Counted from the first letter of the stretch, positions 12,339 through 45,888 are shown. The stretch: 64,000 bases of DNA from a bacterium (GCA_030429765.1 JAUIER010000007.1:68372-132371); one strand, 5' to 3'. Made by a program: numbers and translations. Notes: generated by a model not told the origin, from the sequence alone.

Positions 12339-12932
12339 CTAGGAAACTATCTCAATCCGCTCCACCCAGATGACTTCACATGAACTGCCGCCGCGGTCGG
12401 TTCGGGTCAGCGAACTGTTCCAGTACCAGCCCTTGGGACCTTTGATCCAGACCAGCTGACCGCGGATGCGGACCACCTGTCCTTTGCGGGCCTGCTTGAT
12501 GGTCTTGAGGACTTTTTCATTCGCCGGGATCAGATGCATGTTGGCGCTGTGACTGACAATCTCGTCGAGCGGCAGCGGCGGCTCTTCATAGCGGTACTTG
12601 TACCAGCGGCCGGACTGCCAGATCTTCATCTGACTGATCACATTATAACTCGACATCGGTCCCCAGCCTAATGCAAAATCCATCGGCGAGAGCTTGGCGC
12701 CAGCATCCGACGAGTAATACTTCTTGCTGAGCAGCCGGGCCTCGATATCAAACTGGGCCTTGGGAGTGATGGTGTAGCCTTTGTGGTCGAATGGTTTTTT
12801 GTGGGTTGCCGTCTGGACCGGTTCTTTGCGAACCACGTGGGATTTGTCATAGTCCACCCAATCATTGAGGTGATGACTGTACCAGACGCCCGAACAGATC
12901 AGTAACGTGAGGATGATGACATGTTTACCCAT
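12339..12932 (-). CDS. Hypothetical membrane-anchored/secreted protein
   Basis: Likely start MGKHVIILTLLICSGVWYS; C-terminal beta-rich GQVVRIRGQLVWIKGPKGWYW segment. Confidence 0.3.
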   Translation of the reverse strand: MGKHVIILTLLICSGVWYSHHLNDWVDYDKSHVVRKEPVQTATHKKPFDHKGYTITPKAQFDIEARLLSKKYYSSDAGAKLSPMDFALGWGPMSSYNVISQMKIWQSGRWYKYRYEEPPLPLDEIVSHSANMHLIPANEKVLKTIKQARKGQVVRIRGQLVWIKGPKGWYWNSSLTRTDRGGSSCEVIWVERIEIVS

Positions 12933-13113
12933 AAAAAACCCCGGTGACGAAAGGGTCATCGGGTGACATGTGATCGATCCGGTAACCCAGCCGCCGTTTG
13001 AACAAGTTCAAGTAGGCCTGTCGGCTTTGCGAACCGCGCTTTCGCTGCGGCGTGCCTTTAGCGTTATACATTCAAGTATGCCTTATATGCGGTAACTCGT
13101 CAAATATCAGCCC

Positions 13114-13779: not shown

Positions 13780-14322
13780 TCACTCCACCGCCGTCCATTG
13801 ATCCGGATGATACTGATCGTCGAGATATGCATCCCACTCCTCATCGTACGGATGAACTCGGTCGACAAGCGTTTCGCCTCGATACACCGGACGCCCCTGA
13901 TTCGCCCATTGAAAGATCGATCCTTCAAAGTTCTGCACATTGGTGTATCCCCGGGATTGCAATTGCCGAGCCACCTCAGCCGAACGATACCCCACCGAAC
14001 AATACACCACGATCGGATCATCCCTAGATACATCAGCCACGACGGCGCCTATCTCCGCCCAACTCTCCGCCGGCACTGCTCCGCGCAGATGGCTCACCGC
14101 AAACTCATCCACCGAACGAATATCCAGCAACACCGGCTGAGTTCGTGATGGATCGTTCATCCAGTCATTGAGATCAGAGGTAGAGATTGATTTCACGTCG
14201 GGATATTTCGAGTGGATTTCCAATGTTAATTCCGACCATTCGTTGCTTACCGAATTGGTATTTACACAAGCAAGTAAACATAAACTCAACGATAGAACAA
14301 TTATTACCTTTAGTCGTATCAA
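13780..14322 (-). CDS. Rhodanese-domain lipoprotein (sulfurtransferase)
   Basis: Lipobox LLAC; rhodanese fold with active-site CSVGYRS. Confidence 0.7.
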   Translation of the reverse strand: MIRLKVIIVLSLSLCLLACVNTNSVSNEWSELTLEIHSKYPDVKSISTSDLNDWMNDPSRTQPVLLDIRSVDEFAVSHLRGAVPAESWAEIGAVVADVSRDDPIVVYCSVGYRSAEVARQLQSRGYTNVQNFEGSIFQWANQGRPVYRGETLVDRVHPYDEEWDAYLDDQYHPDQWTAVE

Positions 14323-14373
14323 TTTGCTACCCTTAGACGCATACTTCCAAGGTTTGTGCTTGTAACCTCTAAT

Positions 14374-14949
14374 TTAGACAAATACATCATTTACCCAAGT
14401 ATTCCTTGTTGCCTTTGTTTTAACCTTGATTAACATTTCCACTTCAGATGAATTTAAATTGCTGTAGAGCAATCTATCCGTTTCAACGGTTACTTTATTG
14501 ATTAAGGAATCATCCTCTAACAAACAAAAAAACGGACTTTCCTCTTCCTTCGGAGTATCATCCTTTGGAATTTCGGCAGATGACTTTGGCATCCGTAACG
14601 CGTCAAATAACGTTTTTAGGCGATTATCAATATCTCCTGATTGAGCGATTATCGATCCAGGGGGTTCTGGTCTAAGAAGCATGATGTGTAATTCAGCGTA
14701 TAAATTATGTTTATCGTTCACAAGAGGCACAAACAAAAATTCTCCTACAGCCTGAGCAGCAGAATATTCATTGTCAGGATTAAAGACATTCCGACTTTCT
14801 CTAAACTCCGAGAGTGGCAGCTGTCCCCACAATACTTGCAGTTGCGCATGGAAGTGGCGACGGATCAACTGCTTATCCAGAGGAGATCCACTGGATTCTA
14901 ACCTTCCTCTGTAATGTAAAATAAATTCCATAATTTTGTCCCAAAACAA
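14374..14949 (-). CDS. Hypothetical protein, low-GC ORFan
   Basis: 191 aa, about 38% GC, no TM; no confident family assignment. Confidence 0.3.
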   Translation of the reverse strand: MFWDKIMEFILHYRGRLESSGSPLDKQLIRRHFHAQLQVLWGQLPLSEFRESRNVFNPDNEYSAAQAVGEFLFVPLVNDKHNLYAELHIMLLRPEPPGSIIAQSGDIDNRLKTLFDALRMPKSSAEIPKDDTPKEEESPFFCLLEDDSLINKVTVETDRLLYSNLNSSEVEMLIKVKTKATRNTWVNDVFV

Positions 14950-15016
14950 AAAATTCGGAAAAAATAACTAAAACCAATGTGCTTGTTGAGTCTATATTCT
15001 GTCAAACCACTAGATA

Positions 15017-15178
15017 CTACCCCTCATTGCGCTTTCTTAATTCTTCCAGTATTTCCCTAAGAGTATTATTCATTAGGTTGATTTTGAAGTACCAACAAAA
15101 AAATTCTCTAGCACAAACAAACAACAGGACAGAAACGATCCAAATTCCTGCTATAAGCAAAAATTGTTCGCTAGTCAT
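15017..15178 (-). CDS. Small single-TM protein (53 aa) with strong SD
   Basis: Hand translation MTSEQFLLIAGIWIVSVLLFVCAREFFCWYFKINLMNNTLREILEELRKRNEG; AAGGAGGG 4 nt upstream of ATG; below the ORF-track size cutoff. Confidence 0.35.
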   Translation of the reverse strand: MTSEQFLLIAGIWIVSVLLFVCAREFFCWYFKINLMNNTLREILEELRKRNEG

Positions 15179-15240
15179 TTACCCTCCTTTAAGCTTACTG
15201 CTAATCCCTACCTATCAAACACTACCCCCTAACCGCTACC

Positions 15241-15552
15241 CTACTTCTTAAACAACCCACCCGTGTAATCAATCGGATGGCCATATTTTTTGTAGTCGAG
15301 GCCGACGTCTTCGAGATCGGTCATCATCGGGCCGTGAAATCCGAAAGGAGTTTCGGAGAAGAAGGCGTCGATCAATTCTTTTTCACCGACCTGATCGTTG
15401 CCGTTTTCTTTGGCGTTCGCCAGCGATTTTTTGGTGATCGCCTTCTCGGCCATCGGCCGGAGAAAGATCGGCATTTTCTTGAGGACCTGCTGATACAGAT
15501 CGGCCACCGCCGGGTCCCACTCGGCCCCGTACTTGCTTTCGGTGTCGCTCAT
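15241..15552 (-). CDS. Small PCP_red-like (protochlorophyllide-reductase C-terminal-like) domain protein
   Basis: WDPAVADLYQQVLKKMPIFLRPMAEKAITKKSLANAKENG resembles PF08369; GGAGGA SD upstream. Confidence 0.35.
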   Translation of the reverse strand: MSDTESKYGAEWDPAVADLYQQVLKKMPIFLRPMAEKAITKKSLANAKENGNDQVGEKELIDAFFSETPFGFHGPMMTDLEDVGLDYKKYGHPIDYTGGLFKK

Positions 15553-15554
15553 CC

Positions 15555-16406
15555 CTATTCCTCCATCGCCGGCGCGGTTTCAATGTCATCGGCCGCCTGG
15601 ATCAAATTGGTTGAAAACGATCGGGCCGCCTGGGTCAGCGCGACCTTAAGACCGCCGGTCACCGCCTTGTGATATTTCGTCCCGACCTCTGAATCGGCAA
15701 AGGCCAGGTACTGGGCGAGTTCGTCCTGGGACAGTTCCTGATAGGTAAACAGCATCGAGTCGACCACATATCCCTGATACTGACGTTTCATCATCGGACG
15801 GCTCATCTCGATCTTCTGATCAATCTGACGGGCGGTCATGCGTTGGTCACTCGGCAGATACGGCATCGCGCTCATCGCCACGGCTTTGTGTGTGTTGATC
15901 ATCACATCAAGCAGGGTGTCCGTGCCGCCGACCGAATCATCCAGTGCTGACATGATCTCGCGTCGGGCCGCGGGAATATCTTTGCTGTCGATCATCGCGA
16001 CAAAACGCTGACGTTCGAGTTCACTCTCCGGTGTGCTGCGGTCTTTTTCGATCTGGGTGATGCGCGCCCCGATATCCGAGTTCAGCCACTCGAGCGCACC
16101 GGTCATAGTGGCGTCATCGAGATTCGCCGCGAGGTGCTCCCGTAATGTATCCTTCATGACATCCGGATCATACGCGTCCTGCAGGACCGACTGCACATGC
16201 AGCAACCCCTGCGGATCCGCGTCACGGTTGGCCTGGACCGATTGATTGACGCTGACGGATACAACTTCCGGTATACTTTCGATCTGCGCGTTGAGACCGG
16301 ACTTTTCCATTAACTCATCAATCGACCCGGCATGGGCCGGCTGGGCCGCCGCGATCATGAGCACGGCCATGCAAAGGGTTGGTAGTATTCGTGCGATGCG
16401 ATTCAT
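15555..16406 (-). CDS. Periplasmic DUF2059-like protein
   Basis: Signal peptide then helical repeats; 2 nt from the downstream gene. Confidence 0.4.
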   Translation of the reverse strand: MNRIARILPTLCMAVLMIAAAQPAHAGSIDELMEKSGLNAQIESIPEVVSVSVNQSVQANRDADPQGLLHVQSVLQDAYDPDVMKDTLREHLAANLDDATMTGALEWLNSDIGARITQIEKDRSTPESELERQRFVAMIDSKDIPAARREIMSALDDSVGGTDTLLDVMINTHKAVAMSAMPYLPSDQRMTARQIDQKIEMSRPMMKRQYQGYVVDSMLFTYQELSQDELAQYLAFADSEVGTKYHKAVTGGLKVALTQAARSFSTNLIQAADDIETAPAMEE

Positions 16407-16472
16407 AAGATCTCCTTGGTAGGTTTTTGTGTATTGTCTTGCTTTTTCCCTGATTTGCTCTATAAATAAGGT

Positions 16473-17132
16473 ATGGCTAGATCGTTTTATATTAGCGTGT
16501 GTTGGGTTTTCCTACAAGCGGCAATTTGCGCCGCGCATCCGCCGAGCGGTATCGACGTGCAGTATGATGCATCACGGGGTAAACTGATGCTGGACGTCAA
16601 GCATCTGTCGCGTGACAATGTCGGCCATTACATCCAGCGCATCGAGATCCAGAAAAACGACGAACGGCCTCGCTCCTTTTCGTATCGCCAGCAGGTGCAT
16701 CCCAATTCATTTACAGCCGATATTACCTACTCCGTCGAAACGTTCGACAAGCTCAAAATCACCGCGTATTCACGCGAAGGCGGATCCAAGACCGTTGAAT
16801 GGGAAGCCACGGAAGAAGAAATGGCCCGCGAGGTTGAACCGCGCGCTAAGCGTCAGCGCAGTATCTCAACTCATCCCAAGGATTCAGACCGACTCAAACC
16901 CGCGGTGCCGACCGATCCGGAAATCTCCAAACCGGCGGTGCCAAAAGATTCCGACAAGATCCGTCCGGCGTTCACCCGTGATCCCGACATCGCCAAACCC
17001 GCCATTCCAACGGACCCGTCGAAGATTCGACCGGCGGTCTCGTATGATCCGGATGTGGCCAAGCCCACGCATCCCCGCGATCCATCCAAGCTCAAGCCCG
17101 CGGTTCCCCGCACCAATTCATATTCTAACTAA
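16473..17132 (+). CDS. Secreted SoxZ-like domain protein with C-terminal proline-rich 11-residue repeats
   Basis: N-domain HPPSGIDVQYDASRGKL...HYIQRIEIQKNDE...KITAYSREGGSKTVEW parallels SoxZ (HPMETG...HFIQ...KFSWTDNKGGSETE); tail is 7 copies of (K/R)PA(V/I)P(T/K)DPxxx. Confidence 0.45.
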   Translation: MARSFYISVCWVFLQAAICAAHPPSGIDVQYDASRGKLMLDVKHLSRDNVGHYIQRIEIQKNDERPRSFSYRQQVHPNSFTADITYSVETFDKLKITAYSREGGSKTVEWEATEEEMAREVEPRAKRQRSISTHPKDSDRLKPAVPTDPEISKPAVPKDSDKIRPAFTRDPDIAKPAIPTDPSKIRPAVSYDPDVAKPTHPRDPSKLKPAVPRTNSYSN

Positions 17133-17443
17133 GACGCCTGCTGCCAGGCATTGTATCCACCCGATAGACTCGCAACATTCGTAAAGCCGTTTTCCAGCAT
17201 GGCCGCGCAAAATGATAAGCTGCTGTTGCCGTAATAGCAATAACACACGATCCGATCGTCTTTACCGACGGTCGCCACAAATTCCTCAAAATTATGCGGC
17301 TGAACATGCACCGCGCCCTCGACATGCTCGGCCTCATAGTCCATCGGTGAACGGATATCAACGATCTTCACCGGTCCCTCGGCCATCCATTGTTTGGCGG
17401 TATTGACATCGACCTCTTTGATTTCCATATCTTCGTCACTCAT
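17129..17443 (-). CDS. Single-domain rhodanese sulfurtransferase (GlpE-like)
   Basis: 104 aa; IVDIRSPMDYEAEH...VCYCYYGNSS active-site loop. Confidence 0.75.
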   Translation of the reverse strand: MSDEDMEIKEVDVNTAKQWMAEGPVKIVDIRSPMDYEAEHVEGAVHVQPHNFEEFVATVGKDDRIVCYCYYGNSSLSFCAAMLENGFTNVASLSGGYNAWQQAS

Positions 17444-17457
17444 ATCTTCTCCTACAT

Positions 17458-18480
17458 TTATGGTATGGTTTTTAATTGATGATTATCATACAAGCATAAC
17501 AGTCCGCGTAACATTTTTTCACTAAAGACCTGTGCACCGGCCGCCGTCAGGTGACGTTCATCGCGCCAGTAATCAATTTGATACAGCGATTCAAGCTCTG
17601 GAATCAGCGCCAATCCCAATCGGCTGAAATACTGGAGCGCCTCCGGTGAAGGATACCCCTGCCTGAATTGGGGCAAGTACGTAAAATAGACCTTGGTGTC
17701 ATAGGCCTCGGCCAAGGCCACCATCCGCCGCAGATAAAAATCAGCCAGCGTTCCCTCAATCCCGTGGCCCGAAAAACGCGGCAGCGTCTTGGGCGGTTGC
17801 ATCCGTTTATACTGCTGTAAAAATGCCGGGTCCTGCTGCTGAGCGATATCCGGAAAATAAAATCCCCGTGCCTGATGATACTCCTGCTGAACACGGTCGC
17901 GAGATCCGTCGCGATTCTGTAACCAGGCCACCGCCCGCCCCATCCACACCCGCGGGACGCGTACAGCGATGTCACCAAGCATTTGCGAAATCGTCCGCCA
18001 CTGAAACTTCAACGATAATTCCGATTGCGGCTGCGGCTTTTGGGAGTCTCTCTGCAAGTATTGAATCTCCTGAAGCACATCATCGATCGACGCGAAATGC
18101 CGCATATAGCTGTGATGGCCGATCACCTCTTCCATGGAAAATTCCAGTATCAGATTTTTCACCCTGCGGTTTTGAAGGGTATGTTTAAGTGTAATATAAT
18201 CCACATCACGCCCCACCCAATTCCGTCCGAAATTAAGGACACGGGTATGCGTTCCGGCGGTCTGTTCCATAATCAGCGGATCCAGCGCCGTCCAGATCCC
18301 GGAACTGCCCACGATCAGATAATCCACCGGCCGCCGATTGCGTTCGTAGATCTGCGTCTCGATCCAGCTCCACTTGCTGTCCAGCACGCTCAATTGATAC
18401 CGCGGAAACATCTCGCTGACAATCAATGACAATCCGGAGAGCACAACAACGACGATAATAATTCGAAGTAGATTTTTCAT
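17458..18480 (-). CDS. Membrane-anchored SGNH/DltD-AlgJ-like acyltransferase partner
   Basis: N-terminal TM; LIVGSSGIW block I-like and DERHLTAAG block V (DxxH); adjacent to MBOAT. Confidence 0.45.
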   Translation of the reverse strand: MKNLLRIIIVVVVLSGLSLIVSEMFPRYQLSVLDSKWSWIETQIYERNRRPVDYLIVGSSGIWTALDPLIMEQTAGTHTRVLNFGRNWVGRDVDYITLKHTLQNRRVKNLILEFSMEEVIGHHSYMRHFASIDDVLQEIQYLQRDSQKPQPQSELSLKFQWRTISQMLGDIAVRVPRVWMGRAVAWLQNRDGSRDRVQQEYHQARGFYFPDIAQQQDPAFLQQYKRMQPPKTLPRFSGHGIEGTLADFYLRRMVALAEAYDTKVYFTYLPQFRQGYPSPEALQYFSRLGLALIPELESLYQIDYWRDERHLTAAGAQVFSEKMLRGLLCLYDNHQLKTIP

Positions 18481-18487
18481 ATAATCG

Positions 18488-19888
18488 TTAGAATTGAAAA
18501 TAAATAAAGGCCTGATGCGTCAGATTTAATTCACTCAATAATGCGATCAGCGCGCAAAACACGTAGACGATCCCGCCGCGCGCGCTCCAATGCCAATGCG
18601 TAAAGCCCTTGGCTAATTTTTCAATCCGCGGCTCGACGCCGGTATGAAGCCACCATGTCCCGCCAACAATGGCAATCAGCCAGCGCATATTAGTGATCGT
18701 CAAACGCCAATCCCCGGACCAAATGCCCTGGTAGTATTCCATGGCGAGCGACAGATTCGCCGACCGGAATAGCACCCACGTCAGACAGACGATCACAAAG
18801 AATATGGCTGTCTGAAAAAAACCCGGTATCCGTCGATGCAGACCTTCGCTGATCCGATAAACAACCAACAGCAAGCCGTGAACCCCGCCCCAAATAACAA
18901 ACGTCCAATTGGCCCCGTGCCACAAGCCGGCGAGCAGCATCACGATAAACAGATTACGCAGCGTCTTGGCCGTTCCAAATTGATTGCCGCCTAACGGGAT
19001 ATACAGGTAATCCCGGAACCAGGTCGACAATGTGATATGCCACCGTTGCCAGAACTCACTCGGGTTACGCGCGAGATACGGACTGCGAAAGTTCACCGGC
19101 AGCTGCAGCCCAAAGATCTTGCCCAGGCCGATCGCGATGTCTGAATACGCGGAAAAATCAAAGAATATTTGAAAGGCATATCCATACAGGGCCAGCGACA
19201 AATCGGCCGCTGTAAACGACGCCGGATCCGCGAACACCGGATCGACGACGGTGCTGCCCAGGATATCGGCCACAAAAAGCTTTTTGGCCAGTCCGTACAG
19301 AATATAAAATAATCCGGACTCATCACATTTCTCACAGAGGTTGTCACGCAGTTGCGGTAGAAACTCGCGGGCGCGCACAATCGGTCCGGCCACCAACTGC
19401 GGAAAGGAGGCCACAAACACCAGGAATTCCAGCAATGAATCCGTCGGCTGAATCTTGCGTTGATAGATATCAATGGTATAGCTGAGACTTTGAAAGGTAT
19501 AAAACGAAATGCCGACCGGCAGGATGATGTTCAGTGTCGGCAGGGATCCCGAAAGCCCTAATCCGCTTAACGCGCTGGAAAGGCTCTCCAGAAAAAAATT
19601 CATGTACTTAAAGTAGGCCAGTAATCCCAGGTTCCCGATGAGACTCATGGCCAGGAGCTGTCGACGGTGTTTGGGATCATCGGATCTCCCCATCGCCCGC
19701 CCGACAAAGAAGTCTAAACACGAACTGAAGACGATCAGAAACAGCAGTTCAACCCGCCACCAACCGTAAAAGATGTAACTGGCGATCAGCAGCAACACCA
19801 GCTGCAGAAAACGGGAACGCCGGCAGCACCCGAACAACACGAACGTACCGATCAAAAACGGAATAAAGATGATTTCAGTAAACAGCAC
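18488..19888 (-). CDS. MBOAT family O-acyltransferase (AlgI/DltB-like)
   Basis: WRLTITNMRW... and hallmark WHITLSTWFRDYLYIPLGGN with catalytic His. Confidence 0.85.
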   Translation of the reverse strand: MLFTEIIFIPFLIGTFVLFGCCRRSRFLQLVLLLIASYIFYGWWRVELLFLIVFSSCLDFFVGRAMGRSDDPKHRRQLLAMSLIGNLGLLAYFKYMNFFLESLSSALSGLGLSGSLPTLNIILPVGISFYTFQSLSYTIDIYQRKIQPTDSLLEFLVFVASFPQLVAGPIVRAREFLPQLRDNLCEKCDESGLFYILYGLAKKLFVADILGSTVVDPVFADPASFTAADLSLALYGYAFQIFFDFSAYSDIAIGLGKIFGLQLPVNFRSPYLARNPSEFWQRWHITLSTWFRDYLYIPLGGNQFGTAKTLRNLFIVMLLAGLWHGANWTFVIWGGVHGLLLVVYRISEGLHRRIPGFFQTAIFFVIVCLTWVLFRSANLSLAMEYYQGIWSGDWRLTITNMRWLIAIVGGTWWLHTGVEPRIEKLAKGFTHWHWSARGGIVYVFCALIALLSELNLTHQAFIYFQF

Positions 19889-25399: not shown

Positions 25400-26626
25400 T
25401 TACCCGGGCGTGGAAGTCTGCCTGACCAAGGGTACTTCCCGCGTCTCATCCGTCCAGTCATCCAGCAGATACAGTCGTAGACCTTTGTCCAGACTCAGCT
25501 CATTCAAACTCAACGTCAAACTTTGAAGATCCAATCTTATTTGGACATCCGTCCAATTCTCCTCATAGAGTGATAAATGAATCACATAATCATCCCCGAC
25601 AACTTCGAGCTTTAAGATGTGGTATTCTTCTCCCATAAAAAAATTGCTCGTCTGCAATACGTCAATAATCTGCTGCACATGACCTAGCGGGATGTCATCC
25701 TGATAGTAAATTTCATGCTGCTGCTCTCCGAACTCTATCAGCGTTCCATCATAATACGGAGCGGTGATGGTCCGATAAATTCCCACACTGCATAGACTGA
25801 TCGCCAACACAGCCACCAACAATACGCCCAGCCGACCGCTGCTTTCGCGATCCGGCTGTGTCTCAACCGCCGAAATCTCCCGCGATGTCCCGACCGGTTT
25901 GGGATACGCGTCCGACAGTTGACGGACATCAAGATAAAACAATACGGAAATAATCACCCCCATAACAGCCAAGGCATTAATCGGGATATAACCCATGGCT
26001 TCCACGAGCGGACTGGCCTCATCCGGGAACCAGTAAGCCGCGCCAAAAATCAGCATGCCGTATATCGCAAACAAAGCCACGGAATACCCAAAATACCGCC
26101 CCTTATGCCCGGTCATATAGTCGTCGCTGGCCTTCAATGAGTCGTGATCATTCTTGCCTTCAAACACCGCGATCGGCGTGGCCAGTGCCAACCGGCACAT
26201 CATCATCACACCCGGAACAATCAACAACAGGCGCCAGGATATTTTCTTGAGTGCCAACAACATGATGCCCAACACCGTTCCGTACAAGTCACTCGACGCC
26301 TTATAGACCGGCTTCAGCTCAATCGTTTCAGCGGCGGCCATGCGTCGCAACACCTCGGTCTGCCAGGCCACGACGAATCCGTAGACAAACAGATCGATAA
26401 CGACTGAAATAAGAAAATACGCCCGGATTTTGGACGGTGTTGTTTTTTCGAAATATTGATAAAAGATCTCACTGGCCCAATCAAATGGAAACTCAATTAT
26501 TAAAGGAATCATGATCAAGAAAACTGGACTTCGCCACACGCACCGCCAGATATCCCGATGCATTTCTGCCAACGATCGAGGCTTAACTGGTCGGTCGGAT
26601 GTATTCAGGCTATTGTCGATGTCCAT
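25400..26626 (-). CDS. Hypothetical polytopic membrane protein with C-terminal soluble domain
   Basis: 6 TM helices; overlaps upstream SGNH gene by 17 nt. Confidence 0.35.
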   Translation of the reverse strand: MDIDNSLNTSDRPVKPRSLAEMHRDIWRCVWRSPVFLIMIPLIIEFPFDWASEIFYQYFEKTTPSKIRAYFLISVVIDLFVYGFVVAWQTEVLRRMAAAETIELKPVYKASSDLYGTVLGIMLLALKKISWRLLLIVPGVMMMCRLALATPIAVFEGKNDHDSLKASDDYMTGHKGRYFGYSVALFAIYGMLIFGAAYWFPDEASPLVEAMGYIPINALAVMGVIISVLFYLDVRQLSDAYPKPVGTSREISAVETQPDRESSGRLGVLLVAVLAISLCSVGIYRTITAPYYDGTLIEFGEQQHEIYYQDDIPLGHVQQIIDVLQTSNFFMGEEYHILKLEVVGDDYVIHLSLYEENWTDVQIRLDLQSLTLSLNELSLDKGLRLYLLDDWTDETREVPLVRQTSTPG

Positions 26627-27893
26627 AAATCCTCGTCAAGATAGGTAGCAGGTGCTCGGCCGCCAACGCGTGTCCGCGGGCATTAAAGTGATGATCAAAT
26701 TTATAGTACAATGACTCCGGGTCGGGCGCGGACGTGAATACCGGCATCAAATCCAGATGATGTATACCCTGCCCTTCCAAAAAGGCCTTGAGCTCGCGGG
26801 TGGGTTTTTGCAGGTCAAAGTCATCCGCATTCAGGATATAACGACGTTGGGCCACGTGCTCCTGCCAATATTGCGGCAAGACCTGTTCCCTGGCCGGGAG
26901 CATCAACACTACAAAATCCGCACCGATGGCCTGTGTTTCAGCCTTGAGCTTCAGCAACAGATGATGCATCAAACGCACGGATTCCTGAAGCTCGGGCGGA
27001 TAATCTTTACGGTAGACATCAAACGGATAATCATAGTCGGTGCGCAGCCCCAACCGATCGATCATATACAACTTGAGAAACTCAAGACTCTTTAAGTACG
27101 GCATTGACTGCGAGAATCGACGCAGGGTATTGACCCGGGCGGTTGCCGCGTCCAGGCGGTCGGATTGTTTAATGTGAATGGGATGGGAAATTAGAAGTTC
27201 CTCTTGAGAGGTGCGGTCAAACGGAAAGATCCTGATCTGACCGGAACGGTCGAATTCATAACGCGGGGCCAATTGCGGCCGCTCTTTTTTGTAATTAGGC
27301 GAATTATCGACGAGGTCATTTGGAAAGAAAGATAAAACAACAACATCGGGTTTGAGCCGGACGACCTCTTCTTGAAAGATACGGTATTGATGAATTGTCC
27401 CGATACTGGAGACACCAAAATTATAAACCATGGCATCAATGTCCGCCGACTCAAGCCCGGCTTCCACTTGTTCGGGAATCGATTCATCCTGTTCGACCTG
27501 AACTGCCTGAATAAATGAATCACCGAGGACCGCGACGCGGAATTTATGGGGGGCTACGATGTAGTCTTCTGTATCCCTAAAACCCTCAGTATTGATCGAC
27601 ACATTCGTCCGAAACTCGGCATGCGGATAGCGCCATCCCCTGAACTCGCCGTCATTGTTGGGCGTGTGCCGCCACCCGTAACGGTCATCGAGTTGATAAA
27701 ACTCTTCGGGAAATTGATAACCGGGATCCTCATGCGCCAGCGCGAACCAATGCGGACGGTCGATATACTTGAGATAAATCCCTTTGTGATAGATCAGATA
27801 GCGGACGGCAAGCTCCACACAAATCAAGCAGATAACGACAACCAACACAAAACTGATAAGCGCAAAGATTGATTCCTTGAGACGAAATTTCAT
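26610..27893 (-). CDS. Membrane-anchored SGNH/GDSL-fold hydrolase-like protein
   Basis: N-terminal TM; VAVLGDSF (block I) and C-terminal DHHFNARGH (block V). Confidence 0.45.
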   Translation of the reverse strand: MKFRLKESIFALISFVLVVVICLICVELAVRYLIYHKGIYLKYIDRPHWFALAHEDPGYQFPEEFYQLDDRYGWRHTPNNDGEFRGWRYPHAEFRTNVSINTEGFRDTEDYIVAPHKFRVAVLGDSFIQAVQVEQDESIPEQVEAGLESADIDAMVYNFGVSSIGTIHQYRIFQEEVVRLKPDVVVLSFFPNDLVDNSPNYKKERPQLAPRYEFDRSGQIRIFPFDRTSQEELLISHPIHIKQSDRLDAATARVNTLRRFSQSMPYLKSLEFLKLYMIDRLGLRTDYDYPFDVYRKDYPPELQESVRLMHHLLLKLKAETQAIGADFVVLMLPAREQVLPQYWQEHVAQRRYILNADDFDLQKPTRELKAFLEGQGIHHLDLMPVFTSAPDPESLYYKFDHHFNARGHALAAEHLLPILTRIYGHRQ

Positions 27894-36629: not shown

Positions 36630-39611
36630 TTACGGATTGGATTCTGCGGGCGCGGCCTTCTTGGGGGCCGTCGTGGATTTCGGACGAGGTTTCGCCTTGG
36701 CTTCCGGTTCGGGCGTGTCATCTGACAAAGACATCAGGAAGTTTCGCAACACGCGGATCTGCTCGTCTTCATTTCCGTCCAGAATATCTTCCGGCCCGGA
36801 TTCCTCGTAGCTGTCCGGATCAAAGAATGTCGGCATTTTTGTGCCCGGCATCAGAGCTGACGGATTCTTCAGCCATTCAATCAGCCATTCCGGCTGCAGC
36901 CGGGTTCTGGCCAGGGCCAGGTTCGGCGCCCATGAATCCTGCGATCCCGACGGCAACTTGCCGCCGACCACGTGACACTGCGTACAGCCGAAGTAGTCTT
37001 CCGAGAAGAGTTTTTCTGCCGCCGCGTATTCTTCTTTGGTCATCTTGGTGTCCGGATCAAATTTGTATGGGAACGCATCACCGTCGACGGCTTGGAAATA
37101 CTGGATGAGTGAGTTCAGATGCGAAACGTTAAAGTTAAACGTCGGCATCCGCACGCGCAACCACGGCCGCACGATCTGCTTGGGCTCATGAAGGAAGTTA
37201 AACAGCCATTCCGGATCAAGTTTCTTACCGACACCGTGAAGATTCGGCGGACTGAAACTGTCACGTACCGTTGCCGCCTCGTTGTCTGTTTTCCCTTCGT
37301 ATTCCTTCAGCCACGTCTCAACGGTTGAGGCAATCGTACCGCCGTTGCCTTCCATGATGTGACACCCCTGACAGTTAAACTGAGCAATCAAATCCTGACC
37401 TTTCTCCTTGATCAGATTTTCCGGTGTTCGCGGAACCTTCTTGGCTTCGACGGTGCTGGTGTTCACAAATCCCATCAACGCCGTTACAATCGCCTCAATC
37501 TCCTCGTCCTTGAATTCAAAATTCGGCATCCGCAGCTTTTCATCCGGCGCCTTGATCTTTCCATGATCAAAACTTCGTGGATCCTTAAGCTTTTGTGTAA
37601 ACCAGGCATGCTTGCTGTGTTCAATGTGCAGGAAGCCAAAATCAAACTTATGGATCGACTTGCTGGCCTCTTCGGTCAGCTCAACCCCGATCGGTTTGGC
37701 GCCTTCAAATCCCTTGATGTTATGACAGCTGTAGCAGCCGTATTGGCTGATCAATTTTTCACCGGCAAAGTGAAGCTTCTCGCCGAGTTTCATTTGGGCC
37801 AGTTTGTCGCGCGCTCCCTGGTCAGTTAATCCGCGTTTTAAGAAATCGATCACAATTCCGTTTAGGATGTTGACATCAATCTCGGGGACCGGCTGAGCGT
37901 CAAACTCACGGTTTTTATCCCCTGATAGAAATTCGGCAATATCCGCCGCTTCCTGGTCCGTCAACCGCATATCCGGCATGGACGTTTTGGGATGGTAACG
38001 CGTCGGATCTTTCAGCCAATTGAACAGCCATTGCTTGGACGTCTTGGATCCCAAACCGATTAAGTTCGGACCATGACGTCGACGGAGATTGTCAATATCT
38101 GTCTTGACCAGATCGGCTTCAGGTTTGATTTGGTGGCACGCATAACAGCCGATGGATTTGACCAACTCCTCACCCGTCTCGGCGTTTCCTTTAACGGGGA
38201 GCTTGGCCTGCTGGAACGGCTGCGTGTTCTCGAATAGATAGTGGATCATCGCGTGAATCTCCTGCGATGAACGCTTGAGTGATACTGGATCGCTGTTGTT
38301 GGATTGATTAAAGTACGCCGGCATCATGGCGTTGTGACGGAATGAATGCGGATCATTGATCCAGCGATAGGCCCATTCCTTGGAAATCTTAGTATCCAGC
38401 TTGGTTAAATCAGGCCCCGGCTTGTTCCAGTGTTTGTACTTGTCGATCTCGTGACAGGCGTAGCATCCGGACTTTTCAATCAGGCTTAGCCCCAGATTCA
38501 ATTTATCGGCACCCTTGATGCGCGTTTCACCGCTGTGACACTTGAAACATTGAGACTGCGTCAACGGCAATGGAATCATCGGATCTTCCCATAACTCCAT
38601 TTGGTGATAACCGTACTTTTCTTCCCACTCGGCTTTTTGGGCCGGGCTTGAAGGCACGTGAACCGCTCCGTTGAAACTGGTCCCACGCGCCCGACCACCA
38701 TGACAGACGGTACAACCGAATTCCTCGATCGGATGCGGCGAGTTCTTGCCGACGTATTGCTCAAGATTTGGATGCGTCTTGAACGGCTGGACTTCATTCT
38801 CATAGTCCGGATTTGTGATTCCCAAATGGCAGCTGATACAGCGTTCCACTTTGGGAACGTTCATGAAATTCACGTTATCCGTAACATCCTTGAGGACAAC
38901 CTGCTCGATCTTGTTGTTGGGATTGGCCAGGTCAAGCACGGGAAGGTCCCGGACCAGATTGGCGATCTGATTGACAAAGGTCATTTCCGCCGGGTCAATA
39001 CTGTCCAGCTTTCGCTGCAACAGATCACGCTGACCGGCGATCTTGGATTGACTGCGGCGCAGCTGTTTAAGCTCTTCCCCGCAGCTCTTGATCTCCTGCT
39101 CCTTAGCCTTGAGCGCCTGCTTGCTGACTTCCAGCTGCAGACCCAGTTCGTTGACACGTTCTGATAAGGCCTGGAATTCCTCGCCATACTTCTCGGCATC
39201 GGCCTCCTGATAAGCCTCGGCATGCTCAAATTTGTACTTTAACGCGTCGAGTTCGGCCTTGCGGAATTTATAGTCCTGTTCCACAAGAATGGCCTGGTCC
39301 TCAACTTCTTTGAGGCTGGCCTTGATTTCATCGGTCAGCGCGCACTTGGCGTCAAACTCCGCCTGGGCCTTTTCCAGTTGCGCCACCAATTCATTGTACT
39401 CGTCCTGCGCTTCCAGCGTGAGGGTCTCTTTGTCCAGCTTGACCCTGGCCTTCTCGACTTCCATCGCGCGGAATTGCGTCTGATAGTCCTTCCACTCACG
39501 GTCATAGTCTTTCATGAACAATGACATGATGGCCAGCAGCAAAGCGATACTGGCAAACGCAAACAGCATGTTGAGCTTATTAATATTATAATGACGTTCG
39601 TCTTGTCCCAC
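36630..39611 (-). CDS. Octaheme c-type cytochrome with N-terminal TM and long coiled coil
   Basis: Eight CxxCH motifs (CISCH, CTVCH, CFKCH, CYACH x2, CYSCH, CQGCH, CTQCH); N-terminal heptad-rich E/K/Q segment. Confidence 0.8.
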   Translation of the reverse strand: MGQDERHYNINKLNMLFAFASIALLLAIMSLFMKDYDREWKDYQTQFRAMEVEKARVKLDKETLTLEAQDEYNELVAQLEKAQAEFDAKCALTDEIKASLKEVEDQAILVEQDYKFRKAELDALKYKFEHAEAYQEADAEKYGEEFQALSERVNELGLQLEVSKQALKAKEQEIKSCGEELKQLRRSQSKIAGQRDLLQRKLDSIDPAEMTFVNQIANLVRDLPVLDLANPNNKIEQVVLKDVTDNVNFMNVPKVERCISCHLGITNPDYENEVQPFKTHPNLEQYVGKNSPHPIEEFGCTVCHGGRARGTSFNGAVHVPSSPAQKAEWEEKYGYHQMELWEDPMIPLPLTQSQCFKCHSGETRIKGADKLNLGLSLIEKSGCYACHEIDKYKHWNKPGPDLTKLDTKISKEWAYRWINDPHSFRHNAMMPAYFNQSNNSDPVSLKRSSQEIHAMIHYLFENTQPFQQAKLPVKGNAETGEELVKSIGCYACHQIKPEADLVKTDIDNLRRRHGPNLIGLGSKTSKQWLFNWLKDPTRYHPKTSMPDMRLTDQEAADIAEFLSGDKNREFDAQPVPEIDVNILNGIVIDFLKRGLTDQGARDKLAQMKLGEKLHFAGEKLISQYGCYSCHNIKGFEGAKPIGVELTEEASKSIHKFDFGFLHIEHSKHAWFTQKLKDPRSFDHGKIKAPDEKLRMPNFEFKDEEIEAIVTALMGFVNTSTVEAKKVPRTPENLIKEKGQDLIAQFNCQGCHIMEGNGGTIASTVETWLKEYEGKTDNEAATVRDSFSPPNLHGVGKKLDPEWLFNFLHEPKQIVRPWLRVRMPTFNFNVSHLNSLIQYFQAVDGDAFPYKFDPDTKMTKEEYAAAEKLFSEDYFGCTQCHVVGGKLPSGSQDSWAPNLALARTRLQPEWLIEWLKNPSALMPGTKMPTFFDPDSYEESGPEDILDGNEDEQIRVLRNFLMSLSDDTPEPEAKAKPRPKSTTAPKKAAPAESNP

Positions 39612-39628
39612 GTATTAACCCTTCAAGC

Positions 39629-40747
39629 TTAAATATTAAAGAAGAACTCCGGAATCGCGATGATGTACTTGATATTGAACACCCAGCGCAACAGCATCTT
39701 GATCGGCAGACTGGCGGTAAAAAGCAGCAGGATAACAAACACACTGTAGCGCAACGGTCCGAGGTTCTTGAAAACATTCTTGAGCACAGTCTTGGCCAGT
39801 AACAGCGGCATCACACCGAAGTACACAAACACGGCCAAAAATCCCCACATTTCACGAAGCAATATATTCGATGGCAGCTGTTTCTTCATCCAGATCATGT
39901 AGATCAGCTCGGATAAATTCACGTTCGTCAACGCTTCCAGCTTGTGTAGGTCCCAATACTCGAATGGACCGAAGAAGTTCCAGTTCGGCCCCCTCAGGAA
40001 TGTCCCCACACTAATAAGGAAGATCCACAGGACAATCCAGAGAAACATAAAGATCGACACCGCCATCCGCCGATCGTTAAAGGTGTAATAACCCGATCCT
40101 TTTTTATTATTATCGATGTACGGAATGGCCATCAATCCGATCATGATCACCGTTGGAAAGACCACACCCGCCAGCCACGGATCAAAATAAACCAGCATTT
40201 CCTGTAAGCCCAGGAAGTACCATGGGGCCTTGGACGGGTTTGGTGACACCGAGGGATTCGCCGGTTCCTCGATCGGCGCCTGAAGCGCCATCGCCCAGAC
40301 AAGCAATAAGACCGAGCACAGGATCAGACAGATAAATTCAATGTAAACCAGATCGGGCCAGACCAAAATTTTTTCCTTGGCATCCTCCGCCTCTTGCGGC
40401 GGCTTGCCGGCCGCGATACGCGCGTCATTATCGTATGCCTGTTTCATGGATAGCCATAAGAAGAACACGACCAAAAACAGCAGTCCGACAATCGGCACAT
40501 TATCCGGTTTACTGACAATCTTACGGAAGTTCGGATCTGAAATACCAAAGCAGAAAAAGGCGAATAATCCCGACATCATCAGAATACCGCCGTTGCGTGT
40601 CCACAACTTGTAGATCCCCAGCTTGCGGTTGATCTTCTCGAAAAAGTTGTTCATTGGGAAAACGAACAGGTAACTGACGGCCAGAATCGGAAAGAGAATC
40701 TGCGGATTGGTGATTTTGTTTATGACTTCTTTGATGGTTTCAATCAT
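39629..40747 (-). CDS. Cytochrome bc complex subunit IV-like protein (C-terminal half of cytochrome b, extended)
   Basis: PSKAPWYFLGLQEMLVYF corresponds to the PEWY region of cytochrome b/PetD; extra TM helices at both ends. Confidence 0.6.
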   Translation of the reverse strand: MIETIKEVINKITNPQILFPILAVSYLFVFPMNNFFEKINRKLGIYKLWTRNGGILMMSGLFAFFCFGISDPNFRKIVSKPDNVPIVGLLFLVVFFLWLSMKQAYDNDARIAAGKPPQEAEDAKEKILVWPDLVYIEFICLILCSVLLLVWAMALQAPIEEPANPSVSPNPSKAPWYFLGLQEMLVYFDPWLAGVVFPTVIMIGLMAIPYIDNNKKGSGYYTFNDRRMAVSIFMFLWIVLWIFLISVGTFLRGPNWNFFGPFEYWDLHKLEALTNVNLSELIYMIWMKKQLPSNILLREMWGFLAVFVYFGVMPLLLAKTVLKNVFKNLGPLRYSVFVILLLFTASLPIKMLLRWVFNIKYIIAIPEFFFNI

Positions 40748-43586: not shown

Positions 43587-45005
<1,419 letters not shown>

Positions 45006-45018
45006 TCATTCCTCGTCT

Positions 45019-45888
45019 TTAATTTATTGCTTCGGCCCCCGCGACAATCTCGGTCAGCTCGGTGGTGATCGCCGCCTGACGGGCACGGTTACGTAACAGT
45101 GTGTATTTGTTAATCAGATCCGACGCGTTCTTGGTCGCGTTATCCATCGCCGACATCCGCGCCCCGTGTTCCCCGGCGGAATTCTCGAGTAAGGCGAAAT
45201 GAATTTTGAAATACAAATAGTGCGGAATCAGATATTCCAATAGCTCTCCGGCTTCGGGTTCAAAGATATACTCCTGCGGATGATCAATCGCCTCGTCGAC
45301 CAGTTCGCGCGGATCAATCGGCAGGATCTTCTGAAACACCGTCTTCTGCGAGATCGGACTCAAGAATTGATTGTATACCGTGTAAACCTCGTCGAAGTCC
45401 CCCTCGCGATAAACCCGGCTCAAATCCTGACCGATCCGTTCAGCGGTGGCAAAACTTGGCGTCGCTGTGACGTCCTCGTAATAGGTCAGGACATCCTCTT
45501 TGTTCTTGAAAAACTGATATCCGCGTCGACCGCAAAAACTCAGCGCGATACGTTCGTACTGAGCGCGTTGGCGATCCACCCATTTAACAACCTGCTTGTT
45601 GGCATTGTGGTTGAACGCCCCGCACAATCCGCGATCGGACGTGATCACCAGGATCAGCGCATTACGGACCCTGTCTTTGGGAACCAGCAGCGGATGTAGA
45701 CCCGGATGAATGGTCGCTGAAATCCGTGATGTCATATGGGCCAGTTGACGGGCATAGGCCTTGGCGTTGCCCTGCGCCTCCTGCGCCCGGCGCAGTTTGC
45801 TGGCCGCGACCATCTTCATCGTCCGCGTGATCTTTTGCGTGTTCTTCAAGCTCTTGAGCTTGTTGTTGTATTCCTTAATACTACTCAT
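45019..45888 (-). CDS. atpG: F0F1 ATP synthase subunit gamma
   Basis: [27 protein letters not shown]-terminus; C-terminal helix. Confidence 0.9.

What the first reader, a model, noticed from the sequence alone, without database searches (positions are those of the whole stretch)
13780..17443. Stand-alone secreted SoxZ-like protein with proline-rich repeat tail, bracketed by two rhodanese genes
This is the only plus-strand gene in the first 22 kb. Its N-domain carries the SoxZ-like pattern HP(x)3G...G(K/E)L...H(Y/F)IQ...KxxxxxxxGGS(K/E)T. It has its own signal peptide and no adjacent SoxY. It ends in seven degenerate 11-residue (K/R)PA(V/I)P(T/K)DP repeats. It is flanked by a rhodanese lipoprotein and a cytoplasmic single-domain rhodanese. 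Together these suggest an undescribed periplasmic sulfur-binding or carrier module independent of the canonical Sox system.
Basis: partly seen in the sequence, partly recalled or inferred. Interest (0 to 1): 0.65.

Follow-up and report, generated by a model that had tools for sequence, protein, structure and literature searches.

The report
Exported SOR/SoxZ-like domain, proline stalk
This gene encodes a small exported protein made of a β-sandwich domain distantly related to superoxide reductase and SoxZ, followed by a long proline-rich spacer; it belongs to a large unnamed family from uncultured bacteria, and nothing ties it to sulfur oxidation.

Summary
The gene is real: 16473-17132 (+), 219 aa, with a Sec signal peptide, a ~92-aa seven-stranded β-sandwich (AlphaFold pLDDT 95) and a ~90-aa proline-rich tail with 11/22-residue periodicity. 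Two active-site-bearing rhodaneses lie nearby.

It is not SoxZ. No Pfam, NCBIfam or PDB sequence model matches it. The window has no SoxY-type GGCGG peptide. The mature protein has no cysteine. The adjacent rhodanese is cytoplasmic and convergent, and it is conserved only in the three closest relatives.

An exhaustive profile search places the N-domain in a large unannotated family (1205 representatives). Most members are just signal peptide plus domain. About half of the tested members give sub-threshold, colinear hits to the desulfoferrodoxin/SOR domain (PF01880). Fewer hit SoxZ.

Family-conserved residues align with SOR iron ligands: H22~H16, H52~H47, Cys100~Cys111 (Ser in this protein), and the fourth His is Gly. 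H44 and Q74 are invariant.

Best reading: an envelope protein with a SOR-derived, probably metal-binding His site held on an extended proline stalk. The biochemical function is untested. This is an uncharacterised branch of a known fold superfamily and is moderately interesting. The sulfur-carrier reading is not supported.

The parts
16473..17132 (+). Complete gene (219 codons plus stop) for the exported two-part protein (= P0001).
   Evidence: ORF list. There are 10 full-length homologues at 40-100% identity with the same architecture. The AlphaFold models are confident.
16473..16535 (+). Sec-type signal peptide, aa 1-21. Predicted cleavage is ICA-A|HPP, which makes His22 the mature N-terminus.
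   Evidence: Direct reading of the sequence. Family statistics: median presequence 22 aa, Ala at -1 in 140/151, A/V/S at -3 in 118/151, K/R in the n-region in 138/151, RR in only 12/151. Cleavage itself is inferred; no signal-peptide predictor was available.
16536..16811 (+). N-domain, aa 22-113: a seven-stranded Ig-like β-sandwich of an unannotated family remotely related to the SOR (desulfoferrodoxin centre II) domain and SoxZ. Key residues: H22 (16536-16538), H44 (16602-16604), H52 (16626-16628), Q74 (16692-16694), and S100 (16770-16772; Cys in 72% of the family).
   Evidence: pLDDT 95.1 and pTM 0.82, with strands 26-32, 37-43, 54-61, 67-70, 79-85, 93-100 and 105-111. 1205 family representatives at E<=1e-3. 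Column statistics. Pfam/NCBIfam sub-threshold hits of family members. hhalign against SOR.
16812..16862 (+). Short acidic helix and basic linker (aa 114-130, EEEMAREVEPRAKRQRS).
   Evidence: Helix 114-118 appears in both models. The subfamily alignment shows a conserved R129.
16863..17129 (+). Proline-rich tail, aa 131-219: eight 11-residue units (seven clear (K/R)PAxPxDPxxx copies, with a stronger 22-residue super-period), ending in NSYSN.
   Evidence: Same-residue matches at period 11 (28 of 77) and period 22 (34 of 66), reached in 0/20000 shuffles. No predicted secondary structure, pLDDT 53-67. Tail length of 99-109 aa is conserved in 11 of the 12 subfamily members (83 aa in P0027). The only model hit is the compositional proline-rich region of PspC (24.6 bits against a cutoff of 500).
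17129..17443 (-). Neighbour, not part of the unit: a cytoplasmic single-domain GlpE-like rhodanese, convergent, with stop codons overlapping by 4 nt.
   Evidence: PF00581 E 1.3e-21; NF001195 GlpE 79 bits, below the cutoff of 102. This synteny is seen only in L006 and L135.
15555..16406 (-). Neighbour: a divergently transcribed secreted DUF2059 protein, separated by a 66-bp intergenic region. It is conserved beside the gene only in the closest clade.
   Evidence: PF09832 E 3.8e-7. Homologous fragments lie upstream in L006 and L135.
13780..14322 (-). Neighbour: a rhodanese lipoprotein (lipobox LLAC) 2.1 kb upstream, separated from the gene by three unrelated genes.
   Evidence: PF00581 E 1.3e-16; NF045521 113 bits, below the cutoff of 145. 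The lipobox was read from the translation.

Best explanation
The gene encodes a Sec-exported envelope protein with two modules.

Module 1 (aa 22-113) is a seven-stranded Ig-like β-sandwich. It belongs to a large family that is so far unannotated and comes almost entirely from metagenomes. The family is a remote offshoot of the superoxide-reductase (desulfoferrodoxin centre II) / SoxZ fold superfamily.

The family keeps residues at positions that align with SOR iron ligands:
- H22 aligns with H16.
- H52 aligns with H47.
- Cys100 aligns with Cys111.
- The fourth equatorial His (H114) is replaced by Gly.
- The family adds an invariant His (H44) and an invariant Gln (Q74).

By strand topology all of these sit at one end of the sandwich (inferred). 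That end is most likely a mononuclear metal- or small-ligand-binding site. Because export is Sec-type, the site would be loaded in the periplasm.

The window protein belongs to a minority subfamily. In it the Cys is Ser and the mature protein has no thiol, leaving a His-only site (H22/H44/H52 plus Q74). This subfamily also carries module 2, a ~90-aa proline-rich repeat of conserved length. Module 2 most likely forms an extended polyproline-type stalk that holds the domain at a fixed distance from whatever binds its C-terminus.

What is shown: the gene, export signal, fold, family membership, conservation pattern, repeat periodicity and the lack of Sox features.
What is inferred: the homology to SOR (probable), metal binding, and the stalk or ruler role.

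The protein is not a SoxZ-type sulfur carrier. The rhodanese neighbours reflect clade-specific synteny.
For: Gene and fold:
- Real, conserved gene.
- Confident β-sandwich model, pLDDT 95.

Family:
- The profile search found 1205 representatives at E<=1e-3 and 303 at E<=1e-10, mostly 113-160 aa, i.e. signal peptide plus domain.
- No Pfam, NCBIfam or PDB sequence hit for the window protein.

Link to SOR and SoxZ:
- 26/55 family members hit PF01880 colinearly (protein ~38-105 against profile 25-93 of 98; best E 3.1e-5). 4/55 hit PF08770.
- 9/55 hit TIGR00332 neela_ferrous and 8/55 hit TIGR04490 SoxZ.
- About 0.002 hits per named family would be expected by chance across 55 searches.
- hhalign of 157 family domains against 120 SORs gives an 86-column colinear alignment that pairs AHPP/KHVP, HYIRKI/HHIRYI and CseGG/CNIHG (P = 0.019).
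- SOR and SoxYZ chains recur in the Foldseek lists.

Putative site:
- H44 and Q74 are invariant in 157/157. H52 is present in 135/157 (D/E in 18), C100 in 113/157 and H22 in 86/157.
- Positions 52 and 100 covary. When 52 is His, 100 is Cys in 111/135. When 52 is D/E, 100 is Cys in 2/18.

Export and tail:
- Sec-type signal peptide statistics.
- Tail periodicity is significant, and tail length is conserved at 99-109 aa in 11 of the 12 subfamily members (83 aa in P0027).
- The tail is predicted unstructured or extended.
Against: - Homology to SOR is remote. The window protein itself scores -0.1 bits against my SOR HMM. hhalign probability is only 2.4%.
- Foldseek E-values are never below 1e-3, and FN3 domains give TM-scores as good or better.
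- H22 is His in only 55% of the family. H44 lies two columns away from the residue aligned with SOR H41.
- No coordinates were available, so I could not check that the conserved residues cluster in 3D.
- Nothing was tested biochemically.
- Two subfamily members lack H22 (P0007 has Tyr, P0010 has Thr), and P0007 also lacks H52. A metal site is therefore not obligatory in the subfamily.
- The stalk or ruler role rests on composition and conserved length only.
Confidence: 0.5

Rival explanations
1. One reading: a periplasmic SoxZ-like sulfur-binding or carrier module that works with the two flanking rhodaneses, independently of the Sox system.
For: - The family is in the same fold superfamily as SoxZ: weak PF08770 and TIGR04490 hits in 4-8 of 55 members, and SoxYZ chains appear in the Foldseek lists.
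- A GlpE-like rhodanese is the convergent neighbour in the window, L006 and L135.
- A second rhodanese lies 2.1 kb away in the window, and a rhodanese fragment lies 2 kb upstream of P0008 in L007.
Against: - No SoxZ model matches the protein at E<=1.
- hhalign against Paracoccus SoxZ gives only a non-colinear 21-column match.
- No GGC[GA]G peptide occurs in any frame of the 64 kb, and no Sox-family gene appears among about 30 neighbours scanned.
- The mature protein has no cysteine (translation), so it cannot carry sulfur covalently. From established knowledge, SoxZ itself only scaffolds SoxY, whose cysteine carries the sulfur.
- The adjacent rhodanese lacks a signal peptide, so it is in a different compartment, and it is on the opposite strand.
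- Subfamily members at 41-50% identity have other convergent neighbours.
- The wider family never sits beside a rhodanese.
Confidence: 0.07
2. A purely structural envelope protein: an Ig-like module with no cofactor, acting as an adhesin, spacer or protein-protein interaction domain on a proline-rich tether. The conserved His and Gln residues would serve fold stability or partner binding.
For: - The best structural matches are FN3/Ig domains and archaeal pilin or archaellin Ig domains, with TM-scores up to 0.64.
- H22 and C100 are dispensable in many members.
- Family tails are variable, low-complexity and often end in a shared [SG]GY motif, which suggests tethering or docking.
- Synteny with AsmA-family envelope proteins occurs in four loci.
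Against: - Strict invariance of a loop His (H44) and a loop Gln (Q74) in 157/157 members, together with the H52/C100 covariation, is more typical of a ligand site than of a scaffold.
- The recurrent PF01880 hits place the family with a metalloprotein domain.
Confidence: 0.3
3. A copper protein with an N-terminal histidine brace (CopC/LPMO-like logic). After signal-peptide cleavage, His22 becomes residue 1. Its amine and imidazole, together with H44 and H52, would bind Cu(II).
For: - Predicted cleavage directly before His22.
- The mature N-terminus HPP resembles the HPxL start of CopC. This resemblance comes from my memory and was not tested.
- Sec export implies metal loading in the periplasm.
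Against: - Position 22 is His in only 86/157 members; it is Thr in 39 and Arg in 13.
- There is no Pfam CopC or other copper-family hit at E<=1.
- The cleavage site is only predicted.
Confidence: 0.1
4. A genuine exported superoxide reductase, analogous to the TAT-SOR class.
For: - Relationship to PF01880.
- Exported SORs are a recognised class (PMC3116461).
Against: - The Cys ligand is Ser and the fourth His is Gly in this protein.
- The signal peptide is Sec-type, not Tat-type.
- PF01880 and TIGR00332 do not match the protein.
Confidence: 0.03

Closest known systems
Superoxide reductase / desulfoferrodoxin centre II domain (Pfam PF01880, TIGR00332; e.g. P. furiosus SOR 1DO6, neelaredoxins 4BFF and 4BRJ)
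   Same: - Both are ~100-aa seven-stranded Ig-like sandwiches.
- Family members give colinear sub-threshold hits to PF01880.
- The motifs are aligned: (A/K)H(P/V)P at the start, H(Y/H)IR(K/Y)I in strand 3, and C-x-x-(G/H)-G in the last hairpin.
- SOR chains recur in the fold search.
   Different: - The window protein is below detection against the curated models.
- Only 2-3 of the 5 iron ligands are kept. Cys is Ser and the fourth His is Gly.
- It is Sec-exported, not cytoplasmic or Tat-exported.
- It has an invariant Gln74 and the YRQQV loop.
- It carries a proline-rich tail.
- No redox partner genes are nearby.
SoxZ (PF08770 / TIGR04490), the scaffold subunit of the SoxYZ thiosulfate carrier
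   Same: - The fold class is the same, and a few family members give weak hits (4/55 and 8/55).
- SoxYZ chains appear at Foldseek E ~7e-3.
- Both are periplasmic.
   Different: - There is no HMM match for this protein.
- The hhalign match is non-colinear.
- No SoxY partner or GGCGG motif is present, and there is no Sox operon.
- From established knowledge, SoxZ has no signal peptide of its own and is exported with SoxY; this protein has its own Sec signal and a tail.
TAT-SOR class of SORGOdb (exported SORs; PMC3116461)
   Same: A SOR-type domain preceded by an export signal.
   Different: TAT-SORs keep the full active site II and use a twin-arginine signal. This family uses Sec signals (RR in 12/151) and has an incomplete ligand set.
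Proline-rich envelope spacers (TonB periplasmic region; pneumococcal PspC proline-rich region)
   Same: - Both are Pro-rich, charged, periodic and predicted to be extended.
- The only model hit for the tail is the PspC proline-rich stretch.
   Different: - The similarity is compositional: 24.6 bits against a cutoff of 500.
- The 11/22-residue (K/R)PAxPxDP unit is its own repeat.
- There is no TonB C-terminal domain, LPXTG motif or choline-binding module.

Membership tests
SoxZ (PF08770 / TIGR04490) | Scores above the curated cutoff of the family HMM. | tested here: not met
   No hit at E<=1 in Pfam or NCBIfam for the window protein. Among wider family members, 4/55 (best E 1.3e-3) and 8/55 (best 1e-3) hit, all sub-threshold.
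SoxZ (PF08770 / TIGR04490) | A partner SoxY with a C-terminal GGCGG swinging arm, encoded adjacently. | tested here: not met
   No GGC[GA]G peptide in any of the six frames of the 64-kb window. Neighbours are DUF2059, rhodanese, MBOAT and others. The rest of the genome was not available.
SoxZ (PF08770 / TIGR04490) | Sox gene cluster context (soxAX, soxB, soxCD). | tested here: not met
   About 30 window proteins were scanned with Pfam and none belongs to a Sox family. None occurs in 15 related loci either.
SoxZ (PF08770 / TIGR04490) | SoxZ-type Ig fold. | tested here: inconclusive
Superoxide reductase / desulfoferrodoxin (PF01880, TIGR00332) | Scores above the curated cutoff of the family HMM. 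| tested here: not met
   No hit for the window protein, and -0.1 bits against my own SOR HMM. 26/55 family members hit PF01880 (best E 3.1e-5). The ten scanned individually scored at most 20.3 bits against a cutoff of 22.2.
Superoxide reductase / desulfoferrodoxin (PF01880, TIGR00332) | A complete Fe(His)4(Cys) ligand set (P. furiosus H16, H41, H47, H114, C111). | tested here: not met
   The hhalign register gives H22~H16, H52~H47, S100 (family Cys)~C111 and G103~H114. H44 is two columns away from H41.
Superoxide reductase / desulfoferrodoxin (PF01880, TIGR00332) | Superoxide reduction activity and iron content. | not testable with these tools
   Requires biochemistry.
Unannotated exported 'AHPP...H...HYIRKI...Q...C..GG' family (defined here) | Profile match over the whole domain, plus invariant H44, Q74 and G104, and near-invariant A21, P23, P24, Y31, L38, N62 and D92. 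| tested here: met
   The window protein scores 156.8 bits (E 1.3e-41) against the subfamily profile and 132 bits against the 55-member profile. All listed residues are present.
Rhodanese (PF00581), the two flanking genes | HMM above cutoff and an active-site Cys loop. | tested here: met
   61.3 and 77.3 bits against a cutoff of 22.2. The loops CSVGYRS and CYYGNSS were read from the translations.
Histidine-brace copper proteins (CopC-like) | His as mature residue 1, conserved across the family, plus a family HMM match. | tested here: not met
   Position 22 is His in 86/157 members only. There is no CopC or other copper-family Pfam hit at E<=1.

The most novel reading that the evidence does not exclude
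The ~1200-cluster family could be a previously unrecognised class of Sec-exported metalloproteins derived from the SOR fold. Its site would be a His/His/Cys/Gln mononuclear centre (H44, H52, C100, Q74, sometimes with the N-terminal His). It would act in envelope redox or metal homeostasis in uncultured PVC/Omnitrophota-like bacteria, and would be functionally linked to AsmA-family and DUF255-thioredoxin proteins. The window protein would then be a thiol-less derivative mounted on a periplasm-spanning stalk.
Probability: 0.25. Interest if true: 0.6.

Novelty: new variant of a known kind. Interest (0 to 1): 0.36.

Why it matters
If the family binds a metal through a pared-down SOR-type site, it would extend the SOR/SoxZ superfamily into the Sec-exported proteome of poorly known phyla. 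It would also give a name and a testable hypothesis to more than 1000 'hypothetical' protein clusters. For this window, the practical result is negative. The locus should not be annotated as a Sox-like or sulfur-carrier module. The rhodanese 'bracket' is synteny confined to one small clade.

Tried and rejected
Searches that found nothing for the window protein:
- Direct Pfam, NCBIfam and PDB sequence searches gave nothing except a compositional PspC hit.
- Profile searches of PDB sequences with the 10- and 55-member alignments gave only chance hits: uracil phosphoribosyltransferase and a ZF-HD homeobox protein.
- Foldseek against PDB with two models gave generic Ig/FN3 hits. SOR and SoxYZ were not separable from that background.

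Weak or limited results:
- hhalign against single SOR and SoxZ sequences, and against a 120-member SOR alignment, gave the expected register but weak statistics.
- A narrow archaeal SOR HMM barely detects the family: 2/157 members above 10 bits, against 0/785 shuffled sequences.
- The genome-contig scan found only the Omnitrophota MAG copy of P0007 plus a 25-residue Pirellula match that I did not pursue.
- The word-indexed search with the family profile returned 19 unnamed proteins.

Tools or inputs that were unavailable or failed:
I replaced it with a back-translated HYIRKI...KN DNA pattern. Only 9 of its 120 matches were true family loci.

Other negatives:
- TRF found no DNA-level repeat in the tail.
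- The promoter/terminator scan was uninformative.
- Three literature searches found no description of such a family.
- The organism could not be named. The exact proteins are in an unnamed NCBI MAG contig of 149,562 bp and in Logan run SRR24442552.

Hypotheses rejected: a SoxZ carrier, a true SOR, and functional operon coupling with either rhodanese.

Full report
**What is at the coordinates**

The flagged interval 13780-17443 holds six genes.
- Five are on the minus strand:
  - a rhodanese lipoprotein (13780-14322)
  - a 191-aa protein with no family (14374-14949)
  - a 103-aa protein with weak DUF2621/PCP_red similarity (15241-15552)
  - a secreted DUF2059 protein (15555-16406)
  - a 104-aa GlpE-like rhodanese (17129-17443)
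- One is on the plus strand: the 219-aa ORF at 16473-17132.

Pfam and NCBIfam confirm both rhodaneses. Their active-site Cys loops are visible in the translations. The lipoprotein has an LLAC lipobox. The GlpE-like protein has no signal peptide.

A crude gene call puts 66 of 72 ORFs in the window on the minus strand. The target is the only convincing plus-strand gene before 22 kb. 'Bracketed by two rhodaneses' overstates the layout. Three unrelated genes separate the first rhodanese from the target. The second rhodanese is convergent, with a 4-nt overlap of the stop codons.

**The protein**

- Residues 1-21 form a signal peptide. Residue 22 (His) is the predicted mature N-terminus.
- AlphaFold2 with 55 homologues gives a very confident model for residues 22-113: pLDDT 95.1, pTM 0.82, seven β-strands in an Ig-like sandwich. 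An earlier model built from 10 homologues agreed, and left the tail without secondary structure at pLDDT 53-67.
- The tail (aa 131-218) splits into eight 11-residue units. Seven are clear (K/R)PAxPxDPxxx copies. Same-residue matches are 28/77 at period 11 and 34/66 at period 22, reached by none of 20000 shuffles.
- There is no repeat at the DNA level, so the repeats are ancient and maintained at the protein level.
- The mature protein contains no cysteine.

**Is it SoxZ?**

No, for the following reasons:
- No Pfam or NCBIfam model matches the protein at E<=1, including SoxZ PF08770/TIGR04490 and desulfoferrodoxin PF01880/TIGR00332. The only hit is a compositional one, from the tail to the PspC proline-rich region.
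- No PDB sequence matches.
- No GGC[GA]G peptide, the SoxY hallmark, exists in any frame of the window.
- No Sox gene is among about 30 window proteins scanned.

**What family is it?**

A word-indexed search of 5.8 billion proteins found only ten full-length relatives. They share 40-62% identity, are all about 210-224 aa long, and all carry the same tail.

An exhaustive HMMER search with the N-domain profile found 1205 cluster representatives at E<=1e-3 and 303 at E<=1e-10. Nearly all are 113-160 aa, i.e. signal peptide plus domain.

The family consensus is A|HPP..I.L.YD.....L.....H.S.....HYIRKI...KN.EEP.......Q..P..F.......A..GD.I.VKA.C..GG.

Over 157 members:
- H44 and Q74 are invariant.
- G104, D92, N62, L38 and Y31 are nearly invariant.
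- H52 is His in 135 members (Asp or Glu in 18).
- Position 100 is Cys in 113, Ser in 28 (as in the window protein) and Ala in 9.
- Position 22 is His in 86, Thr in 39 and Arg in 13.

Positions 52 and 100 covary. With His at 52, position 100 is Cys in 111/135. With Asp or Glu at 52, it is Cys in 2/18.

The presequences fit Sec signal peptides cleaved after (A/V/S)-x-A, and twin arginines are rare. No member carries a name or a precomputed Pfam domain.

**Relation to known families**

When 55 members are scanned individually:
- 26 hit Pfam Desulfoferrodox (best E 3.1e-5). The hits are colinear, covering profile positions ~25-93 of 98 and scoring up to about 20 bits against a cutoff of 22.2.
- 4 hit SoxZ.
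- In NCBIfam, 9 hit neela_ferrous and 8 hit SoxZ_true.

The chance expectation for any one named family over 55 searches is about 0.002, so the recurrence is meaningful even though each hit is weak.

hhalign of the 157 domains against 120 genuine SORs gives one 86-column colinear alignment. The SORs were retrieved with the P. furiosus sequence, which matched its database entry at 100%. The alignment pairs:
- AHPP with KHVP (SOR ligand H16)
- HYIRKI with HHIRYI (H47)
- C-S-E-G-G with C-N-I-H-G (C111, with H114 replaced by Gly)

H44 lies two columns from H41. The statistics are weak: P = 0.019, probability 2.4%. A narrow archaeal SOR HMM sees only 2/157 members above 10 bits and scores the window protein at -0.1 bits.

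Foldseek against the PDB returns no hit below E = 1e-3. FN3/Ig domains lead the list. SORs from five organisms and SoxYZ chains follow at E 7e-3 to 2e-2, with TM 0.40-0.54.

I conclude, with roughly 0.75 confidence, that the family is a remote branch of the SOR/SoxZ Ig-fold superfamily and is closer to SOR. It is certainly not a member of either curated family. From memory only, structural classifications group SoxZ with the SOR-like superfamily; I did not verify this.

**Genomic context**

The arrangement DUF2059 <-| |-> target |<- GlpE-rhodanese is found in the window, in L006 (P0002, 62% identity) and in L135 (P0003, 59%).

More distant members of the same tail-bearing subfamily have a different convergent neighbour:
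- AdoMet decarboxylase (P0004)
- a GFA-family gene (P0005)
- a PMT_2 glycosyltransferase (P0007, an Omnitrophota MAG)
- an alcohol dehydrogenase, with a PilZ gene upstream (P0009)

P0008 has a rhodanese fragment 2 kb away, across five opposite-strand genes.

In the wider family:
- Four independent loci place an AsmA-family gene 0-2 genes downstream (L030, L130, L019, L074).
- Two of those also have a DUF255 thioredoxin-like gene immediately downstream (L030, L130).
- One lineage has an HTTM+DCC1 thiol-disulfide oxidoreductase fusion upstream.
- Other loci show none of these.
- The window has no AsmA or DUF255 homologue.

The rhodanese link is therefore inherited synteny within one small clade. 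What context signal exists for the family points to the cell envelope and thiol redox, not to sulfur oxidation.

**Most likely mechanism**

Shown:
- The protein is exported.
- It has a confident Ig-like domain.
- The conserved polar residues are H22, H44, H52, Q74, the subfamily-invariant YRQQV.P loop, residue 100 and the GG turn.

Inferred from strand order:
- These residues all lie in the N-terminal segment and in the β2-β3, β4-β5 and β6-β7 connections, i.e. at one end of the sandwich.
- That is the end where SOR binds iron.

Inferred function:
- This end is a mononuclear metal- or small-ligand-binding site. It would be loaded in the periplasm, because export is Sec-type.
- The window subfamily has exchanged the thiolate for Ser, which leaves a His3(+Gln) site. 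That rules out SOR chemistry and covalent sulfur carriage.
- The tail is conserved in length (99-109 aa in 11 of the 12 subfamily members; 83 aa in P0027) and in its charge-alternating PxxP pattern. It most plausibly forms an extended stalk. About 90 residues of polyproline-II would span roughly 25-28 nm, which is on the order of the periplasm's width. This estimate is my own inference.
- The tail ends in a conserved NSY motif that may dock the protein.

My confidence is about 0.85 for the descriptive classification, about 0.35 for metal binding and about 0.5 for the stalk role.

**Rivals**

- A cofactor-less structural or adhesive Ig module: about 0.3.
- An N-terminal histidine-brace copper site: about 0.1. 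It is weakened because residue 22 is His in only 55% of members.
- A true exported SOR: about 0.03. TAT-SORs are known (PMC3116461), but they keep the full site and use Tat signals.

**Novelty and verdict**

The gene and its features are real. The SoxZ/sulfur interpretation is not supported beyond a correct hunch about the fold superfamily.

The find is an uncharacterised, unnamed, metagenome-dominated family of exported SOR-like domains. The window protein is a Cys-less variant of it with a proline stalk. I rate it a new variant of a known kind and of moderate interest (0.36). The function remains inferential. The homology signal is weak, and no striking system-level context emerged.

Noticed in passing
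window 12978-13066 (-): A c-di-GMP-I riboswitch (RF01051, 55 bits against a gathering score of 35, E 6.4e-9) lies directly upstream of the 206-aa gene 12339-12959 (-). That gene encodes a membrane or secreted protein with no Pfam family. PilZ (c-di-GMP receptor) genes also sit beside family members in L004 and L130.
   Followed up: no
family proteins P0014, P0028, P0030, P0033, P0042, P0047 and others: 37 of 157 family members end in Tyr, usually as ...[KS][SG][GS]Y after a 20-50-aa acidic or lysine-rich low-complexity linker. The window clade ends in NSYSN. This may be a shared C-terminal docking or sorting motif.
   Followed up: partly
L030 6867-11346; L130 1986-7061; L019 3-1841; L074 3-3009: There is recurrent synteny of the short (tail-less) family members with an AsmA-family gene in four loci, and with a 716-aa DUF255 thioredoxin-like/GlcNAc-epimerase-like gene in two loci. 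An HTTM+DCC1 thiol-disulfide oxidoreductase fusion lies upstream in the L019, L031, L114 and L123 lineage.
   Followed up: partly
P0018, P0032, P0051: Some family members carry a different long tail made of (D/E)VYGSK-type Tyr/Gly/Lys repeats instead of the proline repeat. The domain has therefore acquired repetitive C-terminal extensions more than once.
   Followed up: no
window 1-64000: Strand bias is extreme: 66 of 72 ORFs, covering 56 kb of 59 kb coding sequence, are on the minus strand. GC skew is uniformly negative across the whole window.
   Followed up: no
window 17129-17132; L006 1100-1103; L135 925-928; L004 8624-8627; L136 686-689: In five subfamily loci the gene's stop overlaps the stop of a convergent gene by exactly 4 nt, although the partner gene differs (rhodanese, alcohol dehydrogenase, GFA).
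   Followed up: no
window 36630-40747 (-), 43587-47404 (-), 59602-62636 (-): The window also holds a 993-aa multihaem/cbb3-type cytochrome c fusion next to a cytochrome b-like protein, the F-type ATP synthase alpha and beta subunits, and the cytochrome c biogenesis pair ResB/CcsA. No sulfur-oxidation genes were seen.
   Followed up: no
window 17458-19888 (-) and 26610-27893 (-): An MBOAT (AlgI-like) O-acyltransferase sits with an adjacent 340-aa protein of no known family, and an AlgX/SGNH-like protein lies further on. These look like polysaccharide O-acetylation genes. In the syntenic relative L006 the MBOAT pair is absent between the rhodanese and the DUF1579 gene.
   Followed up: no
window 14950-15240: A 290-bp gap between minus-strand genes contains only a doubtful 90-aa plus-strand ORF (14979-15248). 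Rfam found nothing there at E<=1.
   Followed up: partly
L009 4901-4975 (Pirellula sp. MAG JBJSXX010000354.1): A 25-residue match (48% identity) to the YRQQV.P.F segment of the domain turned up in a Pirellula MAG. It may be a divergent family member or a chance match.
   Followed up: no
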